Assembly (NCBI GenBank): GCA_963743305.1
Contig: CAVUPH010000024.1
Location: 56,603-120,602, forward strand
Length of the DNA stretch: 64,000 bases
Source of the DNA: an uncultured delta proteobacterium
GTDB lineage: Bacteria; Desulfobacterota; RBG-13-43-22
Reading direction: 5' to 3'
The notes beneath the pieces were generated by a model, which did no database searches, was not told the DNA's origin, and saw only the letters and a program-made list of their open reading frames with translations. Position numbers and translations under genes: made by a program. Of the stretch, positions 46,454 through 53,066 are shown in pieces (within the stretch, counting starts at the first letter, position 1; each line of letters starts with the position of its first letter).

Positions 46454-47122
46454 TTAGCCTTCTCGTTTCATCTTCTCACGACGTGCGACTTCCGCCGGTG
46501 TGGGAGGGACCATAGTGAAATCCCCAGTCTTTACTGCACCGTCGCGTACATACTTCGCAATTAAGATGCCATTGGGCGATGTCCGGTTCGCAATTAGTCG
46601 AAACGCCCCAGCTCTTGAGCCAGCGCCAAACAACTTCTTGCCTTGCCCGAGGACGATTGGGAATGTAAAAATATTGATCTGATCGACGAGGTCATCCGCA
46701 AGCAGCGTTTGGATCAAGTCGGTACTGCCCTGTGTAAGAAGCGATGGTCCTTCCTGCCGTTTCAGCTTGGCGACGTCTGACGCTGCGTCACTGAGGGCCA
46801 CCGAACCCTTCCAGGTCAGATCCAAGCCCTTCCGGGTCGCAACATACTTCGTGACTGAATTGAAAGTTTTGGCAATGGGATCATCGGGCCCGCCCTCGGC
46901 ATAGGGCCAGTGGGCCGCGAAGATCTCGTACGTCTTTCGACCGAGCAACAAGTCGTACGGCTCGCTTAACATCTTGCCAATCTCTTCGCCGAAAACATCG
47001 TCCACCAGTGGCGCTACCCAGCCGCCGTGGTTGAATCCCATAGTAGGATCTTCAAGGGGGCCTCCGGGCGCCTGCATGACGCCGTCCAAAGAAACCATGG
47101 CTCCGATTATTACTTTTCTCAT
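46454..47122 (-). CDS. Dihydrofolate reductase / RibD C-terminal family protein
   Basis: VSLDGVMQAPGG, LLLGRKTYEIF, PIVLGQGKKLF. Confidence 0.9.
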   Translation of the reverse strand: MRKVIIGAMVSLDGVMQAPGGPLEDPTMGFNHGGWVAPLVDDVFGEEIGKMLSEPYDLLLGRKTYEIFAAHWPYAEGGPDDPIAKTFNSVTKYVATRKGLDLTWKGSVALSDAASDVAKLKRQEGPSLLTQGSTDLIQTLLADDLVDQINIFTFPIVLGQGKKLFGAGSRAGAFRLIANRTSPNGILIAKYVRDGAVKTGDFTMVPPTPAEVARREKMKREG

Positions 47123-47249
47123 AAATCACACTCCTCTCGTGCCCCATCGTGTAAGGGAAAAATGAGCATGGTTAACCCGCCACTCGTTCGGGCGGGAACA
47201 TGTTACCCCCAAGGTCGAAAACCAAAAGTAGGAATATGGGACGTTCGTT

Positions 47250-48251
47250 CTAAATTGCATAATTCGAGTAGCCGAGGCCAGGCATTTCCGGAGCGTTTGC
47301 CAACCGGGTAACGGATGATGTCGTTGTTCCTAAGTAGCGCGCTACTTCCGCCCCCGAATATCCTAATTTTTTGACCGCCAGTTGACAGAAAAGTCTTCGG
47401 GTCTTCACTACCTCAGCGGCTCGGCTTCCGGACCGAACCAAGTCCCAATCTGTTCCTTCTGATCGGGAAACCCGGGAGGCCAGGGTACCCAGTCCAACTT
47501 TCCGAGCTTTGAGTCGGAGCGTTTTCTCTAATTGTTTTTCCGCCTGGGACATGACCTCTTCAATGAACTCTCCGCTGCCCAAGATTCGCTCATCCGAGGC
47601 CATACGCTGTTTATGCCGTCGCAGAGACAGCACCTGGGACCAACCGCCGGCACTGCGGATCAACCCTCCGCCAACCAAATCAGGCCGCCGCCCCATCGGG
47701 ACCCCGTCGCCCACAAAGCGCTCATATTCCGCTCGCGCCTTCTGCAATTTTGGGCTAAAAAAGGAAAGGATCGATTCGGTGTCCTGCCAGTCCCGCCCCA
47801 TTTTCCCCATTAAAGCCGAATGCCCGGTCCAAGGGTATTCCTTTAATTTAGGCAAATCAGCCACCATTCCTCCACGAAGGGGATTGAGGTGAATATAGCG
47901 CGTTAACTCCAGGAGGTAGGACTCTTCCTCGCAGACAATAGATTTATAGCGATTCTGGAAAAGGTGACCCAACCGTTTATGACGCCGGTTGAAATTTACC
48001 ACATATCCGGTCATCACTTTTCTCATATTCGTAGAGAGAGGTTGGAGACCGGTACGAACCAATAAATGCATATGATTGGGCATCAGCGCCCAGGCATAGA
48101 CCACCCACGCCCCGGCGCGAGCCCGTTCCTCCAGACGCGAGAGGAAATCCTCCCGGTCTTTCGGGTTTCGAAAGATTTTGGTTTTCTCTATCCCTCGGGC
48201 CATGACATGGTGCAGGACCCCCGGAGCGTCTAATCGTGCTTGTCTAGGCAT
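47250..48251 (-). CDS. Y1 tyrosine transposase (REP-associated type) with C-terminal HTH
   Basis: MPRQAR..HHVMARG, LMPNHMHLL (HUH), GHLFQNRYKS, YIHLNP, YPWTG; C-terminal GYSGAEVARYLG. Confidence 0.92.
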   Translation of the reverse strand: MPRQARLDAPGVLHHVMARGIEKTKIFRNPKDREDFLSRLEERARAGAWVVYAWALMPNHMHLLVRTGLQPLSTNMRKVMTGYVVNFNRRHKRLGHLFQNRYKSIVCEEESYLLELTRYIHLNPLRGGMVADLPKLKEYPWTGHSALMGKMGRDWQDTESILSFFSPKLQKARAEYERFVGDGVPMGRRPDLVGGGLIRSAGGWSQVLSLRRHKQRMASDERILGSGEFIEEVMSQAEKQLEKTLRLKARKVGLGTLASRVSRSEGTDWDLVRSGSRAAEVVKTRRLFCQLAVKKLGYSGAEVARYLGTTTSSVTRLANAPEMPGLGYSNYAI

Positions 48252-48257
48252 GTTGAA

Positions 48258-48286
48258 ACTTTATTGCATTTACTCGGCTCTGTCAA
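48258..48286 (-). promoter_or_regulatory. Promoter for the Y1 transposase, probably leaderless
   Basis: TTGACA-N17-TAAAGT, then 6 nt to ATG 48251; no SD. Confidence 0.6.
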
Positions 48287-48383
48287 TGCAATTTAGAAAC
48301 AACGTTATATATTGCCAGAATTTGGCATAGGCTCCCGAGCCTGCGCCAGAAAAAAAATTCATATAATCTATCCAAAAAAGAAA

Positions 48384-48437
48384 CCTCCTGTTAAGAGAAA
48401 AGTAAGCATCACCAAACTTCAACTCTCAAACAGGAGG
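48384..48437 (+). promoter_or_regulatory. Hairpin sequestering the IS110 recombinase Shine-Dalgarno
   Basis: CCTCCTGTT-AAGAG ... CTCTC-AAACAGGAGG just upstream of ATG 48444. Confidence 0.6.
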
Positions 48438-48443
48438 TGTTCA

Positions 48444-49724
48444 ATGAACGAAGTAGAGGATATCAGGCTCACGGAGTTTCGTCAATTCAAGAAAGAGATC
48501 CGGGGATCGAAGGACCATTTGATCGTCGGTATTGACATCGCCAAGGAAAAGCACCACGCTTTTTTTGCTACAGCCACCGGGAAGACGCTATTCAGACGAC
48601 TGATCTTTGACAATACCATCGAGGGTTTTGAGAAGCTGCTGACCCAGGTCAGAGCCATCCAGGTGGCCCAGGGTCTGGAGAAGGTGGTCTTTGGTTTGGA
48701 ACCCACGGCCAACTATCACAAGCCGCTGGGAGAGCATTTGATTAAATGCGGCCGGATGGTGGTCCTGGTTTCCGGGGTAGCGGTCAAGCACAACCGGGAG
48801 CTTCTGGATGGGCGTTGGGACAAACACGACACCAAGGACGCGGCCAATATTGCCGATCTGATTTCCCAGGGCAAGTGCTTGTACTACGAGTACCCGGAGA
48901 TGGGGCTCCGGGATCTGCGCACCCTATTGTCGCTCAAAAAGAAGCTGAAGAAGCAGGAGCATGGGTATCGGGTGCGTATTCGGAACCAGCTCCTGGCCCA
49001 GTACTTCCCCGAATTGGATCGTTTTAGCGGGCGACCGGAAGTGGAACCGATTGTCCGTTGGTGTTTGGACACTTCCGAACTGGCCGGTTTGGAGTTCGCT
49101 CAATTCGTCCAACGGGTGGTGCCCGGGCGTAAGACCCTGGCCCAGCAGCAGCGTTTGCAGACCATCCAGCAAATGGCTATCGACTCCATCGGTTGCGAGA
49201 TGGGGGAAGGGGCCCACTTTGAGGCCCGGGTGATGGTGGACGGGTTGCGGCAACTCCGGGAGACGATAAAGACGACCGACGAACAGATCCGCGAGACTTG
49301 CCGGCAGTTTCCAGAATATGGGTATCTGCTCACTATCCCCGGCTTTGGACCGGACGTTTCGGCCAAGGTGATCGGTGCGATCGGCAATCCCTTCCGCTTT
49401 CAAAACCGGAAGCAGGTGCTCAAGATGGCCGGATTGGATCTGGGCGCCTACCGGAGCGGGGAAACCTCGAATACGGCGACCCCGGTCATTTCCAAAAGGG
49501 GAAAAGCCGATCTGCGCTATGCCTTATACCAGGCGGCCCTGATCGCCTCTACTCGCTGTCGACCCTGGATCGAACATTACACCGATCAATTGCAGGGACG
49601 GGCCAAAGAACCCGGGATCAAAACCAAACGGTATGTCAAGCTATCGGCCAAGTTCTTGATCATCGCTTGGACGATCATGAAGAAAAAGGAGCCTTATAAC
49701 CCGCGATATTTAACTCGAGATTAA
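48444..49724 (+). CDS. IS110-family DEDD recombinase/transposase
   Basis: VGIDIAK, LEPTANY, KHDTKDA, LLTIPGFG, GLDLGAYRSG, ISKRG..LR..LY. Confidence 0.95.
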   Translation: MNEVEDIRLTEFRQFKKEIRGSKDHLIVGIDIAKEKHHAFFATATGKTLFRRLIFDNTIEGFEKLLTQVRAIQVAQGLEKVVFGLEPTANYHKPLGEHLIKCGRMVVLVSGVAVKHNRELLDGRWDKHDTKDAANIADLISQGKCLYYEYPEMGLRDLRTLLSLKKKLKKQEHGYRVRIRNQLLAQYFPELDRFSGRPEVEPIVRWCLDTSELAGLEFAQFVQRVVPGRKTLAQQQRLQTIQQMAIDSIGCEMGEGAHFEARVMVDGLRQLRETIKTTDEQIRETCRQFPEYGYLLTIPGFGPDVSAKVIGAIGNPFRFQNRKQVLKMAGLDLGAYRSGETSNTATPVISKRGKADLRYALYQAALIASTRCRPWIEHYTDQLQGRAKEPGIKTKRYVKLSAKFLIIAWTIMKKKEPYNPRYLTRD

Positions 49725-49737
49725 CCGAACCTTATCC

Positions 49738-49918
49738 ATCCCCTTGGCGAGCCCGGTGAACTACGTGGAGGCCTTTCGTGGACCTCGGACGGGACAATCA
49801 TGGGCCGCTCACTAAACTTTAAAACCTGGATAAGGGATGCTGGGTGCCCGTCTCGGGCGGGATGCCGGATACTGATAACGCTGAGGTTTAAAGTTCGCGG
49901 TTGGTGAGCACTGGGGAT
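49738..49918 (+). ncRNA. Putative bridge/seek RNA of the IS110 element
   Basis: Closing stem ATCCCC/GGGGAT. Two internal-loop hairpins carry AACTACGT+GGGAC (target match) and GGATG+ATAAC (donor match). Confidence 0.72.
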
Positions 49919-50065
49919 ATCAAATAAATCACGTCAGCCCGTCAGGCGTATAAGGGAGGTGCGTTCAAAAAATGGCCCAAATCCTATCTCATCGAAATCG
50001 TTGTCTTTCTCAAAATGAACTTTTCCCTCTTGACAGGGTGATTATAGGATGTCCCCCTTTAAAGA

Positions 50066-50624
50066 ACATGTTGTCCACTACCAGTTCCGAACAGACGCCT
50101 CCAAAGAAGAGAAAGGCGTTCAACAGGGCCTGGTGGAGGGCCTCCTGCTTCTGGGAGTGGGTGAACTCCCCGTAAAGCAGCCGGCTATGCGCTTCAATAA
50201 TCGCCAGGCAGTACAGCTTCCGGGGGGTCTTCCCGTAGAGCAGGGAGCCGAAGTGGCCCCAGTCCACTTGAAACTGTTTTCCGGGAGCCGATTCGAAGCG
50301 GAGATAGGCCCGTTTTTCTTTGGGCCGGATCTCCTGGAGGTACTCCCGGAGAATGGAGGTCTTCCCGGTATAGCCCTGGGGGATCAACCGTTGGAATAAG
50401 ACCGCGCTGCTGACCGTGGGGTCCTTTTCCAGCAACCGTCGGATCTCCTCCCGGAAGGGGTCCAGCTTGCTGGCCCGGACGATCACCGGCTTGGGCGGGT
50501 TGGGCTGATCCAGGTATCTTTTGACGCTGTCCCGGCTGAGCTTCAGGGTCCGGGCGATTTTGCGGATCCCATAGCCTTCATGGAACAACCGGTGGATCTC
50601 GAAGACGGTGCGGCGGTCGATCAT
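50066..50624 (-). pseudogene. istA: Truncated IS21 transposase of element A
   Basis: HTH, RFESAPGKQFQVDWG, ELVVDNM, then unrelated sequence. Confidence 0.85.
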
Positions 50625-50725
50625 GCGGGCCTCCTTTCCGGCAAGGACAAGACCTGGAACAGGGGCTCCTGAAAGGCCACCAGGTCCCGGGTGTCAAGGA
50701 TCATGTTAATTCCCCCCCCTCGGGA

Positions 50726-51503
50726 TCAACACAATTCACCCCTTTTGGGAGGTGAGGTGGTTAAAGGGTTAGGGGTCAAGTTTTTCCGATACGACTCACC
50801 CTCCAGGATAATGTGGTGGGCGTGATGGGCCAGACGGTCCAAGGCCGAGTTGGCCATGACCGGATCCGGGAAGAGCGGGATCCAGTCCTGGGGCGGCCGG
50901 TTGCTGGTAATGATGATCGAGGACTTGAGATGCCGCTCGGCCACGATTTCGTAAAAATCTTCCGCCTGGGGAAGCGTCAGGGCCGTCAGCGCGAAGTCGT
51001 CGATGATCAAGAGATCCGGGGTCAGATAGCGTTTTATCCGTTTTTCCCAGGAATGATCGGCCCGGGAGGCCAGCAGGTTGCGGAACAGCTTGACGGCTTT
51101 GACGAAGAGTACGTCGTAGCCTTTCCGGCAGGCCAGATGTCCCAGGGCCTGGGCCTAGGTGGGTCTTGCCGACCCCGGCCGGGCCATAGAGTAGGACATG
51201 CTCGGCTTTCTCGATGAACAGGCCGGTAAAAAGGTCCCGGACCCGTTTGGGGTTAATCTGCGGCCTCCAGGAGAAGTCGAAGCCCTCCAGGGTCTTCTCC
51301 TGCTCGAAAGAGGCTCTCTGGAGACGCGAGTGTAGTTTTTTGGCCTCCCGACGCTCCAGCTCGTCCTGGAAGAGCAGTTGGAGGAACTCCAGGTAACCGA
51401 GGGAAGCCTGTTGGGCTTCCTGCAGACGCAGGTCCAGGCTTTCCAGCAGGCCGCCGAGCCGGAGGGTTTTCAGTTGAGTCAGGACGGTAGGTTCCAGGTT
51501 CAT
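50726..51503 (-). CDS. istB: IS21 helper AAA+ ATPase (indel near 51155)
   Basis: LKTLRLGG, GPAGVGKTHL, IIDDF, IITSNR, LDRLAH, GESYR. Confidence 0.85.
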
Positions 51504-53066
51504 TGGAGCACCTCCGGTTCGGGGACATAGTAGGTGGGAGGCCGGAGGAACCGTTCTCCTAAAGGCGACCGGGGCCAAACGATGGCGGCCGGGGGTTCCG
51601 GCAGCGTCCCAGCCCTTTTCCAGGATGGTCTTGATACTGTTCATCCGCAGGTTGCCGAAAAACAGGGTCCGGGCGGCGGCCCGTTCCATGGCCACGGGAC
51701 CGTATTTTTTAGCCAGGCCCAACAGACCCTGGACCTTGCGCAGATTCTTCAGGGCGTGTTGTTGGAGGATGATCGTCACCAGCTTTTCGGTTTCCGGTCC
51801 GATGGCCGCGGCCTGGTTGCGGCAAAAGGTCGGGGCGGGCATCAGGTAGGCCAGTTTCTCCGGCGGGTAGTCCGCCGGATCGGTTCGCCAAGTGCCGGGT
51901 TTCAGCGCCCGCAGATGCGTTTTAACCAGCTCTTCGTTGAGCAGGATCTGGACCAGCCGGGAGGTACCCCGGGCCCAGACCTTCCGGCCGATGAACCGGG
52001 TGGGCAGGGAGTAATAGGAGCGATCGAAAACGATATGATGATCGGGATGGGCGGTGCAGCGTTTCCACAAGGGGCACTCAAAACGCTCCCGGGGCAGGGG
52101 CTTCAGGTGAGGCCGTTCCTCGGCCTGGAAAACCTCATAGGGCCGGCGTTTGGTGGTGCCGTGGATCTCCATCCCGACCTCCTGCGTACACCAGATCGGG
52201 GCCCGGGTATTGGCCTCTTCGATATCTCGGAAGTTCCGGCCGGCAACCAGTTGTTGACGGACTACCGGTACGACTCGCTCCACCTTACCTTTGTGCCGAG
52301 GTTCCCCCACTTTGGCCGGATCGGCCACGAAACTGTAGTGCCGTTCCAGGTCCCCATAGGCCCGGTTCAACGTGGGATCGTAGATATCCGGCTTCACCAC
52401 CCCGGCCTTGAGGTTGTCCAGGATGATGGTTTCCGGGACCCCGTTAAAAAACTCGAAGGCCCGGATATGGCAGTCGATCCAGGTGGCCACATCCTGGCGG
52501 AAGACAAAACGGACAAAACGGTGGCGGCTGAAGGACAAGGTCATGATAAAGGCCCAGGTCTTTCTCAAAGCCCCGGTCTCGGGATCGACCATCCGACCCA
52601 TATACCCGAAATCCACCTGGGCCTGGCTCCCCGGGATCACCTCCAGGCGAACCGTCACCCGCGGCGCCCGATAACCCAAACGGGCTCGCAAATAGCGTTT
52701 TACGGTGCAATACCCGATCGCCGTTTCGGTCCGCTCCTGATAAAGACGCCAGACTTGCTTGGCCGTCATCTGCTCTTCCTTCAGCAACTCCTGAAACCAC
52801 TCCTGATGCGGATCCAGCAGGTCCTGGGCCGGTGTTTCCCGAAGCAGTTCCGATTGACTCAGGTTTTTAAGCCGTTTAACCAGGTCCGATTCCGCTGGAA
52901 AAGGTTCGCCGCGCTGCACTCCGGCTTCCTGGCCCAGTTGGACATACTTCCGGATGGTCTTGCGGTCAAATCCCAGGGATCGCCGAATGCTCTTGAAACC
53001 GGCTCCCTGATGCCACTGGTAAATCAACTCAACAATCTCGTTCATGGTAATCTCCCTCCTGGCCAT
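51500..53066 (-). CDS. istA: IS21 transposase (indel near 51590)
   Basis: PGSQAQVDFG, ILDNLKAGV, KGKVER, HGTT, YYSLP. Confidence 0.88.

What the first reader, a model, noticed from the sequence alone, without database searches (positions are those of the whole stretch)
48304..50055. IS110 bridge RNA whose loops match its own target and donor; target is the terminal repeat of a Y1 element
Seen: GT occurs at both ends (48304-05, 50051-52). The empty site reads AACAAC[GT]CCC and the circle junction TAGGAT[GT]TATAT. The non-coding region after the recombinase folds into two internal-loop hairpins. Loop 1 carries AACTACGT (49759-66; 7/8 to the left target AACAACGT) and GGGAC (49791-95; reverse complement of GTCCC). 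Loop 2 carries GGATG (49835-39; left donor) and ATAAC (49875-79; reverse complement of GTTAT). Circularisation would join TTGACA (50030-35) to TATATA at 17 bp. Established: IS110/IS1111 recombinases use bridge/seek RNAs with target and donor loops, and IS621 targets REPs. Inference: this is a GT-core bridge system programmed against the ends of another mobile element. The donor matches are only 5 nt each.
Basis: partly seen in the sequence, partly recalled or inferred. Interest (0 to 1): 0.78.

Follow-up and report, generated by a model that had tools for sequence, protein, structure and literature searches.

The report
IS110 bridge-RNA element in Y1 repeat

Summary
Window 48304-50052 is an IS110-family element. 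It has a 426-aa DEDD recombinase (48444-49724) and a roughly 165-nt structured RNA just after the gene (about 49746-49911).

- **Boundaries:** sibling copies in the same genome share the ends, with GT at both junctions. Uninterrupted sites exist at the ends of other Y1 genes.
- **Structure:** in 68 aligned non-coding regions, 36 base pairs in 5 helices are 93.5% paired, against 30-45% for slid controls. 22 pairs show compensatory changes.
- **Target loop:** it covaries with each copy's own flanks in 58 loci. Left guide: 5.53 of 7 matches against 3.40 shuffled. Right guide: 3.67 of 5 against 2.91. In both, 0 of 20000 shuffles reached the observed value.
- **Donor loop:** it covaries with changed element ends in 4 loci.
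- **Target:** a 20-nt inverted repeat flanking a Y1 (RAYT-like) gene. Eight loci from other genomes show the same placement.

Correction: the loop polarity, the 426-aa protein and the lack of subterminal repeats are IS110/IS621-like, not IS1111-like. Only the 3' position of the RNA is IS1111-like.

I rate it a new member of a known kind. RNA production and the circular intermediate remain untested.

The parts
48304..50052 (+). IS110-family insertion sequence including both copies of the GT core (48304-05 and 50051-52)
   Evidence: The same ends occur in sibling copies and in 80 homologous loci. Empty sites are seen.
48306..48443 (+). Left non-coding end. It starts with TATATA (48306-11), the -10-like half of the putative junction promoter. 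A Shine-Dalgarno-like AGGAGG precedes the ATG.
   Evidence: Sequence. The start of the left end is conserved in the loci listed.
48444..49724 (+). DEDD recombinase/transposase gene, 426 aa
   Evidence: Pfam DEDD_Tnp_IS110 (E 2.5e-24) and Transposase_20 (E 3.9e-19). NCBIfam NF033542 'IS110 family RNA-guided transposase' scores 168.8 bits against a cut-off of 140. It is homologous to the IS621 transposase 8wt6 (E 1.1e-16) and the ISCro4 transposase 9t56.
49746..49911 (+). Bridge RNA (predicted). It consists of a target-binding hairpin followed by a donor-binding hairpin enclosed by a long-range helix.
   Evidence: Conserved in 71 of 80 loci. 36 pairs in 5 helices are 93.5% paired, and 22 pairs have compensatory changes.
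49751..49805 (+). Target-binding loop hairpin. The outer stem is 49751-54 with 49802-05, around an inner hairpin of about 49768-86.
   Evidence: Helices 1 and 2 (98.4% and 94.8% paired).
49758..49766 (+). Left target guide: 7 nt plus the GT core, same sense as the top strand of the left flank
   Evidence: Own-flank matches are 5.53 of 7 against 3.40 shuffled, with 0 of 20000 shuffles as high (58 loci). Sibling copies covary.
49787..49795 (+). Right target guide. GGGAC at 49791-95 is the reverse complement of the core plus the first right-flank bases.
   Evidence: Own-flank matches are 3.67 of 5 against 2.91 shuffled, with 0 of 20000 as high. In the 8 distinct loops whose flank does not start CCC the values are 3.5 against 1.81.
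49807..49813 (+). 5' strand of the long-range helix that encloses the donor hairpin. It pairs with 49903-49909.
   Evidence: Helix 3: 7 pairs, 5 with compensatory changes, 95.9% paired. RNAalifold also predicts it.
49815..49895 (+). Donor-binding loop hairpin. The outer stem is 49815-27 with 49884-95 and the inner stem 49843-48 with 49860-66.
   Evidence: Helices 4 and 5 (87.6% and 97.9% paired; 8 and 4 pairs with compensatory changes).
49834..49839 (+). Left donor guide. It matches the last bases of the right end plus the first core base.
   Evidence: In the 3 of 68 rows where the right end has a changed base (L046; L080 and L082), the loop carries the same change.
49875..49879 (+). Right donor guide: the reverse complement of the core plus the first bases of the left end
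   Evidence: R-TAAC is kept in nearly all of the 68 rows. L054 has changed both the loop and the start of the left end in step. It is absent from the L003-type copies of the own genome.
50030..50035 (+). TTGACA, the -35-like half of the putative junction promoter
   Evidence: Sequence. It is present or near-identical in most right ends listed. Function is inferred.
47250..48251 (-). Y1 (HUH tyrosine) transposase gene of the targeted element, 333 aa
   Evidence: Pfam Y1_Tnp, E 1.6e-09. NCBIfam REP_Tyr_transpos scores 62.1 bits, below the cut-off of 80.
47241..47260 (.). Far arm of the Y1 element's terminal inverted repeat, not occupied by an IS
   Evidence: Inverted repeat I1, 20 nt and 90% complementary, with 48286-48305. 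Confirmed.
48286..48303 (.). Near arm of the Y1 terminal inverted repeat, split by the IS. It resumes at 50053 and probably ends at 50066.
   Evidence: The outer end at 50066/50067 is inferred from contigs of three runs that diverge leftwards of 50067 (table 7) and from where the IS21 IstA frame stops making sense.
50067..50624 (-). Truncated IS21-family istA fragment abutting the Y1 element (context, not part of the IS110 element)
   Evidence: Pfam rve and HTH hits on the ORF 50010-50624.

Best explanation
Window 48304-50052 is an IS110-family insertion sequence that moves by bridge-RNA-guided recombination.

The region after the recombinase gene would give an RNA of about 165 nt with two internal-loop hairpins.
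[quoted passage not shown] - **Donor loop.** It does the same with the joined element ends (right end, GT, left end).

The DEDD recombinase would exchange strands at the shared GT core, so no target duplication arises.

The guide is set to the tip of the terminal inverted repeat of a small Y1 (RAYT-like) element. The insertion lies 52 nt upstream of the Y1 start codon.

Excision as a circle would assemble a TTGACA-17-TATATA promoter that could drive the recombinase gene and the RNA behind it.

**Shown here:** the boundaries, the empty sites, the helices, and the covariation of guides with flanks and ends.
**Inferred:** that the RNA is made and bound by the recombinase, the circular intermediate, and promoter activity.
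For: - **Protein.** Both IS110 domains are present, and the score is above the NCBIfam cut-off for 'IS110 family RNA-guided transposase'. It is homologous to the solved IS621 and ISCro4 transposases.
- **Boundaries.** Identical ends and GT junctions are seen in 5 left and 5 right junctions of the own genome. Five uninterrupted sites exist.
- **RNA conservation.** The 3' non-coding region is found in 71 of 80 homologous loci whose proteins are 49-92% identical.
- **Structure.** On 68 sequences (63 distinct), 36 pairs are 93.5% paired against 30.0-45.4% when partners are slid. 22 pairs and 218 cells have changes on both sides, against 13.0 and 64.5 in shuffles (0 of 500 as high).
- **Target guides.**
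  - 58 loci: left guide 5.53 of 7 against 3.40; right guide 3.67 of 5 against 2.91. In both, 0 of 20000 shuffles were as high.
  - The result holds for 45 distinct loops.
  - It holds for the 24 loops whose left flank does not end CAAC (5.13 against 2.84).
  - It holds for the 8 loops whose right flank does not start CCC (3.5 against 1.81).
  - Within the genome, L002a (loop ..AACAAC, flank ..AACAAC) and L003 (loop ..AACTAC, flank ..AACTAC) covary.
- **Donor guides.** All 3 rows with a changed right end (L046; L080 and L082) carry the matching loop change. L054 changed the loop and the left end together.
- **Architecture.** The target loop comes first. The 5' sides pair with the bottom strand and the 3' sides with the top strand, and the core is included. 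This is as described for IS621 (passages read).
Against: - **No direct evidence of the RNA or a circle.** Rfam gave no hit. A single-sequence fold of 49725-49925 is no more stable than shuffles (z -0.32). No promoter-like site was found on the + strand inside the linear element, and no terminator-like site. RNA-library material consisted of contigs only, and no end-to-end joint was listed.
- **This copy's own left guide is imperfect.**
- **Some loci fit badly.** L068 scores 0 of 7 and 0 of 5 (my left boundary there may be wrong). L022 scores 2 of 7; L074 and L054 score 3 of 7; L039, L049 and L071 score 4 of 7. L075 scores 4 of 9.
- **Other mismatches.** L050 has a right flank that its loop does not match. 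L061 has AT at the left core while its loop keeps GT.
- **Donor guides are short and nearly invariant,** so their support rests on few events.
- **Siblings are damaged.** Of the other two near-full-length copies, L002a has a broken reading frame and L003 lacks the right donor guide.
Confidence: 0.9

Rival explanations
1. The element belongs to the bridge-RNA kind, but this copy (and perhaps the whole family in this genome) is a fossil that no longer moves.
For: Most copies in the genome are degraded. L005, L006 and L012 are deletion derivatives. L002a has a broken frame. L003 has a roughly 20-nt insertion that removes the right donor guide. The copies are only 88-93% identical. The window copy's left guide differs from its own flank.
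Against: The window copy has an intact 426-aa frame. It has both canonical loops and ends identical to the family consensus. A mismatch in a flank after insertion does not prevent a move to a better-matched site, and perfectly matched empty sites exist in the genome.
Confidence: 0.2
2. The conserved 3' region acts as DNA (recombinase-binding end sequences), or gives a small RNA that regulates the transposase gene. It does not act as a guide.
For: A family member (ISPpu9) has a small RNA gene downstream of the transposase that is reported to regulate it; I saw only the abstracts listed. No RNA was demonstrated here.
Against: Compensatory changes in 22 of 36 pairs point to a folded single strand. 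A purely regulatory RNA or a DNA binding site gives no reason for two loop segments to track each copy's flanking DNA, or for the other loop to track changes in the element ends.
Confidence: 0.04
3. The loop-flank matches arise because the 'flanks' are really part of a larger composite element that is copied as a whole (Y1 element plus IS). Shared ancestry, not guiding, would then produce the correlation.
For: The window and L003 share sequence beyond both junctions. Several loci from different genomes have similar extended left flanks. Related sequences inflate shuffle tests.
Against: Empty sites show the IS is a separate insertion. Only 13 of 80 loci have a Y1 gene within 1.5 kb. The signal persists among 45 distinct loops and in subsets with unrelated flanks, such as flanks ending ..GGAC..GGGC..GCTTA and ..AAGC. 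Flanks diverge a few bases beyond the guide-matched positions.
Confidence: 0.03

Closest known systems
IS621 (IS110 group) bridge recombinase and bridge RNA (Durrant et al. 2024, PMC11208160; structures 8wt6-8wt9)
   Same: It has a DEDD recombinase with the same two domains. The RNA has the target-binding loop first and the donor-binding loop second. [quoted passage not shown] A dinucleotide core is included in all four pairings (passages read, compared). It targets a repeat associated with a Y1 transposase.
   Different: The RNA lies after the gene in the right end, not before it in the left end. The core is GT. The recombinase has 426 aa against 328 in the solved chain, and sequence similarity is remote (E 1.1e-16). 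The donor guides are shorter (about 4-5 and 3-4 nt with the core).
IS1111-group elements with a downstream seekRNA (ISEc11, ISPa11, ISKpn4; Siddiquee et al. 2024, PMC11187229)
   Same: The long non-coding region and guide RNA lie downstream of the transposase gene. A promoter is assembled at the circle junction. The targets are specific repeated sequences (sections 6, 9 and 13 read; passages).
   Different: In the IS1111 members tested, the segment complementary to the top strand lies 5' of the one complementary to the bottom strand; here the order is the reverse. IS1111 transposases have 330-350 aa and the elements have subterminal inverted repeats. Here the protein has 426 aa and no significant subterminal repeat was found.
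ISEc21 (IS110 type) and IS4321/IS5075 (IS1111 type): family members that insert into other mobile elements
   Same: The guide or target is set to a conserved sequence of another mobile element. ISEc21 inserts into IS3-family transposase genes (section 12). [quoted passage not shown]
   Different: The victim here is a Y1 (RAYT-like) element, hit at the tip of its inverted repeat. I found no paper describing this pairing (search for IS110 with RAYT: 16 papers, listing only, none on this by title or abstract; search: 0 papers).
RAYT/REP systems (for the targeted element)
   Same: A single Y1/HUH transposase gene is flanked by inverted repeats. REPs are known targets of IS110-family elements (reference title seen; abstracts seen).
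   Different: The score is below the NCBIfam cut-off for REP-associated tyrosine transposase. The 10-nt core of the repeat is not over-represented in the genome (35 sites against about 37 expected). The genome holds 3 full-length and several fragmentary Y1 copies, unlike a typical single-copy RAYT.

Membership tests
IS110 family (bridge-RNA-guided DEDD recombinase elements) | N-terminal DEDD/RuvC-like domain and C-terminal Transposase_20 domain | tested here: met
   PF01548 E 2.5e-24 and PF02371 E 3.9e-19. NF033542 scores 168.8 bits against a cut-off of 140. The alignment to IS621 covers both domains.
IS110 family (bridge-RNA-guided DEDD recombinase elements) | Site-specific insertion without target duplication; the same core dinucleotide at both junctions and once in the empty site | tested here: met
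   GT is at both junctions in the own-genome copies and occurs once in 5 empty sites.
IS110 family (bridge-RNA-guided DEDD recombinase elements) | Structured non-coding RNA with two internal loops | tested here: met
   36 pairs are 93.5% paired, and 22 have compensatory changes.
IS110 family (bridge-RNA-guided DEDD recombinase elements) | Loop sequences covary with target flanks and with donor ends | tested here: met
   Target: (0 of 20000 shuffles as high for both guides). Donor: 4 loci with co-changes. One locus, L061, has an unmatched left core.
IS110 family (bridge-RNA-guided DEDD recombinase elements) | RNA is transcribed and bound by the recombinase; a circular intermediate with a junction promoter forms | not testable with these tools
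   The promoter halves are present in the sequence. The RNA-library data were contigs only and listed no end-to-end joint.
IS1111 subgroup | Long non-coding region / guide RNA downstream of the transposase gene | tested here: met
   328 nt lie after the stop codon against 138 nt before the start.
IS1111 subgroup | Subterminal inverted repeats of 7-17 bp | tested here: not met
   The best local alignment of the left end against the reverse-complemented right end scores 7, and 115 of 500 shuffles do as well.
IS1111 subgroup | Transposase of about 330-350 aa; the top-strand-complementary segment lies 5' of the bottom-strand-complementary one | tested here: not met
   The protein has 426 aa. The 5' guide has top-strand sense and the 3' guide is complementary to the top strand. 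The criteria come from PMC11187229 sections 6 and 9; I did not see its figures.
IS110 subgroup (sensu Durrant / Siddiquee) | Guide RNA in the left end, upstream of the gene | tested here: not met
   The RNA lies in the right end. The paper notes that some IS110-type members have a downstream non-coding region.
IS110 subgroup (sensu Durrant / Siddiquee) | IS621/ISEc21-like guide polarity; at most a very short subterminal repeat; longer transposase in the IS110 branch (395-455 aa) | tested here: met
REP-associated tyrosine transposase (RAYT) system, for the targeted element | Y1/HUH transposase that passes the RAYT model | tested here: not met
   Pfam Y1_Tnp is met, but NF047646 scores 62.1 bits against a cut-off of 80.
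REP-associated tyrosine transposase (RAYT) system, for the targeted element | Gene flanked by inverted repeats | tested here: met
   The window copy has a 20-nt repeat, 90% complementary. No such repeat was found for the C30 and C6 copies.
REP-associated tyrosine transposase (RAYT) system, for the targeted element | The repeat is highly abundant in the genome | tested here: not met
   There are 35 sites of the 10-nt core pattern against about 37 expected.

The most novel reading that the evidence does not exclude
This could be an undescribed subfamily of IS110-type bridge recombinases with four distinctive traits:
- a 426-aa protein;
- a GT core;
- IS621-like loop polarity, but with the RNA encoded after the gene;
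- a long-standing specialisation as parasites of the terminal inverted repeats of Y1 (RAYT-like) elements in Desulfobacterota, Nitrospirota and Chlorobiales.

Its natural series of at least 45 distinct guide/target pairs would document how retargeting proceeds in nature. It would also offer a new compact scaffold for programmable recombination.
Probability: 0.5. Interest if true: 0.5.

Novelty: new member of a known kind. Interest (0 to 1): 0.35.

Why it matters
- It is a clean natural example of bridge-RNA programming. The same RNA scaffold is retargeted in dozens of genomes, with target and donor guides readable from sequence alone.
- It shows an IS621-like RNA architecture placed at the opposite end of the element. 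This bears on how the RNA moved between ends when the IS110 and IS1111 groups diverged.
- It documents one mobile element using the terminal repeat of another as a safe landing site.
- None of this changes the known mechanism. The value lies in cataloguing and possibly in tool mining.

Tried and rejected
- **Rfam.** There was no hit in 47000-51500 at E up to 1, so no curated family covers this RNA.
- **Single-sequence fold.** The fold of 49725-49925 is no better than shuffles (z -0.32). Only the comparative analysis revealed the structure.
- **RNAalifold.** It missed the outer stem of the donor hairpin and proposed three other pairs (columns 98-100 with 107-109). I replaced these with the stem read from the sequences, and one search supports it.
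- **Regular expression for the target hairpin.** It found the hairpin in only 4 of 72 sequences, so I abandoned it for the alignment.
- **REP idea.** The target is not an abundant REP.
- **Plasmid search.** Only relatives of about 30% identity or less, mostly annotated 'IS110 family transposase', were listed. This was no help for naming.
- **Sequencing runs.**
  - No run held half of the words.
  - Contigs of two RNA libraries from one study (X15, X16) lay on 29 and 24 of 30 bins, including 49784-50047.
  - They are contigs of relatives at 90-99% likeness. They carry no strand or end information, and DNA carry-over cannot be excluded.
  - The bin 49718-49783 had almost no cover. Contigs run on there into the L002a-like variant (loose ends at 49713).
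  - No joint of the right end to the left end was listed.
  - The skips near 49527-49811 match the deletion copies also present as DNA.
  - None of this counts for or against transcription.
- **Inverted repeats of the other Y1 copies.** I looked around the C30 and C6 copies and found none.
- **Not used.** I did not run the large protein searches, structure prediction or complex prediction, because the family assignment was already clear.
- **Supplements not seen.** The supplementary tables of PMC11208160 and PMC11187229 (lists of predicted bridge RNAs and targets of ISfinder entries) were not seen. They may already include relatives of this element.

**Rows dropped or adjusted.**
- 6 of the 71 non-coding-region hits were cut short and left out of A1.
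- 10 of the 68 A1 rows were left out. Nine lacked a readable flank on one side. L020 was dropped because its left flank looks like the element's own right end.
- In L044 one extra T lies between the conserved right end and GT. I set the flank to start at GT.
Full report
**The element and its boundaries**

The sequence between 48304 and 50052 holds one long frame. Its likely start is the ATG at 48444, which an AGGAGG precedes.

The 426-aa product has the two domains of IS110-family recombinases:
- DEDD_Tnp_IS110, E 2.5e-24.
- Transposase_20, E 3.9e-19.

It passes the NCBIfam model 'IS110 family RNA-guided transposase' with 168.8 bits against a cut-off of 140. It aligns over both domains with the solved IS621 transposase (E 1.1e-16) and with the ISCro4 transposase.

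The window's own genome (43 contigs, 4.9 Mb) gave 13 BLAST matches to the region.
- Besides the window copy there are two near-full-length copies: C29 at 93% (L002a) and C16 at 88% (L003).
- A third copy (L002b) is cut by a contig end.
- There are several deletion derivatives (L005, L006, L012).

Five left junctions read ..AC|GT followed by the same left end. Five of six right junctions read the same right end followed by GT and CC.

Searching with the left flank alone led to five places where the same kind of sequence runs straight through ..AC GT CC.. without the element. So the boundaries, the single GT core and the absence of a target duplication are established.

**The target**

The left flank is the region upstream of a 333-aa Y1 (HUH tyrosine) transposase gene on the minus strand, 47250-48251 (Pfam Y1_Tnp). 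The insertion lies 52 nt from its start codon. That is 18 nt beyond a promoter-like TTGACA-17-TAAAGT on the minus strand.

The last 20 nt before and including the core (48286-48305) form a 90% complementary inverted repeat with 47241-47260, at the other end of the Y1 gene.

Other points on the target:
- The repeat's 10-nt core is not abundant in the genome (35 sites against about 37 expected). The Y1 protein scores below the RAYT model cut-off. I therefore call the element RAYT-like rather than a REP/RAYT system.
- The genome has three full-length and several fragmentary Y1 genes.
- For the C30 and C6 copies I found no second repeat arm.

The same placement recurs elsewhere. Of 80 homologous loci from other genomes, 13 have a Y1 gene within 1.5 kb.
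- In 8 of them (L015, L019, L029, L044, L050, L053, L080, L081) the Y1 start lies about 52-59 nt left of the element's left end, in divergent orientation, as in the window (positions).
- In L021 the distance is about 106 nt, because the repeat tip is present twice.
- In L014 and L072 the element sits just past the 3' end of the Y1 gene.
- L014 and L081 are two copies on one contig that occupy both repeat arms of one Y1 gene.
- Many loci without a Y1 gene still have extended left flanks resembling such repeats.

**The RNA**

The 328 nt after the stop codon are conserved in 71 of 80 loci, whose proteins are only 49-92% identical to the window's.

I aligned 68 of these regions: 65 loci with complete cover, plus the window, L002a and L003. 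RNAalifold predicted 27 pairs, 14 of them with compensatory changes.

With the outer stem of the second hairpin added by inspection, the structure has 36 pairs in 5 helices:

| Measure | Observed | Control |
|---|---|---|
| Cells paired | 93.5% | 30.0-45.4%, partners slid by 1-3 columns |
| Pairs with changes on both sides | 22 | 13.0 in shuffles |
| Cells with changes on both sides | 218 | 64.5 in shuffles |
| Shuffles reaching the observed values | 0 of 500 | |

In window coordinates:
- Target hairpin 49751-49805: outer stem, internal loop, inner hairpin.
- Long-range helix 49807-13 with 49903-09.
- Inside that helix, the donor hairpin 49815-49895: 12-bp outer stem with one bulge, internal loop, inner stem-loop.

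**Guides and targets**

For 58 loci with both flanks readable, I compared loop positions with each copy's own flanks and with flanks dealt out at random.

| Comparison | Rows | Own flank | Shuffled | Shuffles as high |
|---|---|---|---|---|
| Left guide, 7 nt 5' of the loop's GT | 58 | 5.53 of 7 | 3.40 | 0 of 20000 |
| Right guide, reverse complement of 5 nt before the loop's AC | 58 | 3.67 of 5 | 2.91 | 0 of 20000 |
| Left guide, distinct loops | 45 | 5.47 of 7 | 3.48 | 0 of 20000 |
| Right guide, distinct loops | 45 | 3.67 of 5 | 2.95 | 0 of 20000 |
| Left guide, flank not ending CAAC | 24 | 5.13 of 7 | 2.84 | 0 of 20000 |
| Right guide, flank not starting CCC | 8 | 3.5 of 5 | 1.81 | 0 of 20000 |

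The rows with unusual right flanks include clear cases such as L077 and L033 (5 of 5) and L069, L054 and L037 (4 of 5).

Inside the window's genome the same behaviour is visible:
- L002a has ..AACAAC in both the loop and the flank.
- L003 has ..AACTAC in both.
- The window copy has the ..AACTAC loop in an ..AACAAC site. Its loop matches perfectly the empty sites at C30 and C9.

Misfits exist and are listed under evidence against:
- L068 matches nowhere.
- L022, L074, L054, L039, L049, L071 and L075 match poorly on the left.
- L050 matches poorly on the right.

**Guides and donor**

The 5' side of the second loop carries GG-G-ATG against the right end ..AG-G-AT plus the first core base. All three rows in which the right end differs at the middle base (L046, and L080 with L082) carry the same base in the loop.

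The 3' side carries R-TAAC, the reverse complement of the core plus the first bases of the left end. L054 has changed both in step. L061 has AT instead of GT at the left junction without a loop change.

Their support therefore rests on two or three independent events.

**Classification**

The loop order and polarity are as follows:
- The target loop comes first.
- The 5' sides pair with the bottom strand over the longer stretch.
- The 3' sides pair with the top strand over the shorter stretch.
- The core is included in the pairings.

This is what Durrant et al. describe for IS621 (passages read). It corresponds to the order reported for the IS110-type ISEc21 (section 12), and not to that of the IS1111 members tested (section 9).

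The protein has 426 aa. That lies within the 395-455 range given for the IS110 branch and outside the 330-350 range of IS1111 transposases (section 6). I found no significant subterminal inverted repeat.

Only the position of the RNA, after the gene, is IS1111-like. Siddiquee et al. note that some IS110-type elements have a downstream non-coding region. The element is therefore best filed as an IS110-type member with a 3' bridge RNA.

Relatives on plasmids are at most about 30% identical. My two literature searches for this pairing or clade found nothing specific. I could not see the papers' supplementary tables.

**What is not shown**

No tool result shows that the RNA is made.
- Rfam has no model for it.
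- The linear element has no promoter-like site on the + strand. This fits, but does not prove, dependence on the junction promoter (TTGACA at 50030-35, 17 nt, TATATA at 48306-11 after end-joining).
- Contigs from RNA libraries cover relatives of the region but cannot show strand, ends or transcription, and no circle joint was listed.

**State of the family in this genome**

- The window copy is the only recovered copy with both an intact frame and canonical loops.
- L002a's frame is broken near residue 153-155.
- L003 keeps a 426-aa frame. It shares a roughly 20-nt insertion that removes the right donor guide with the fragments L005, L006 and L012.

**Verdict**

The thing is a new member, possibly a new subfamily, of a kind of system described in 2024.

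Noticed in passing
L003 (own genome C16:18651-20454, minus strand); also L005 (C23), L006 (C6), L012 (C23): A lineage of copies carries a roughly 20-nt insertion in the 3' side of the donor loop that removes the conserved TAAC guide. L003 still has an intact 426-aa recombinase frame. It may depend on RNA from another copy, or be inactive.
   Followed up: partly
L002 (own genome C29:89748-91513): This 93% copy has a loop that matches its own left flank, but its recombinase frame is broken near residue 153-155 (the frame stops at 164). The break could be real or an assembly error.
   Followed up: partly
own genome C6, about 110190-110230: Upstream of the full-length Y1 gene on C6, the repeat tip ..AACTAC GT is followed by sequence that is neither the empty-site continuation nor this element's left end. 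It may be a different insertion at the very same GT.
   Followed up: no
L014 and L081 (contig CAWJJC010000015.1): Two copies of the element flank one Y1 gene (91% identical to the window's). One sits in each arm of its inverted repeat.
   Followed up: partly
L020:1330-1350: The left flank of this copy ends like the element's own right end rather than like its target guide. It may be a remnant of a tandem or circle junction, or an insertion into a donor-like site.
   Followed up: no
L021:200-270: The repeat tip (left target, GT, right target) occurs intact about 45 nt left of the occupied copy, so the target is duplicated there.
   Followed up: no
L054 and L068: In this divergent pair the loop carries GA at the position of the GT core. 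In L054 the left junction reads GA while the right junction reads GT, and the right donor guide has changed in step. L068 fits none of my boundaries.
   Followed up: partly
window 50010-53066: To the right of the Y1 element lie an IS21-family istA fragment (ORF 50010-50624, minus strand) and a longer 756-aa ORF (50796-53066, minus strand) that I read by eye as IS21-type. Contigs from three runs diverge leftwards of 50067, which marks the outer end of the Y1 element. The region is a nest of insertion sequences.
   Followed up: partly
window 48258-48286 (minus strand): A promoter-like TTGACA-17-TAAAGT for the Y1 gene lies inside the inverted repeat, 18 nt from the insertion point. The insertion separates the Y1 promoter from whatever lay upstream.
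   Followed up: no
window 49912-50029: The stretch between the bridge RNA and the -35 box is also conserved to the very end of the element in most loci (nhmmer alignments reach position 327-328 of 328). I did not test whether it holds a further hairpin or protein-binding sites.
   Followed up: no
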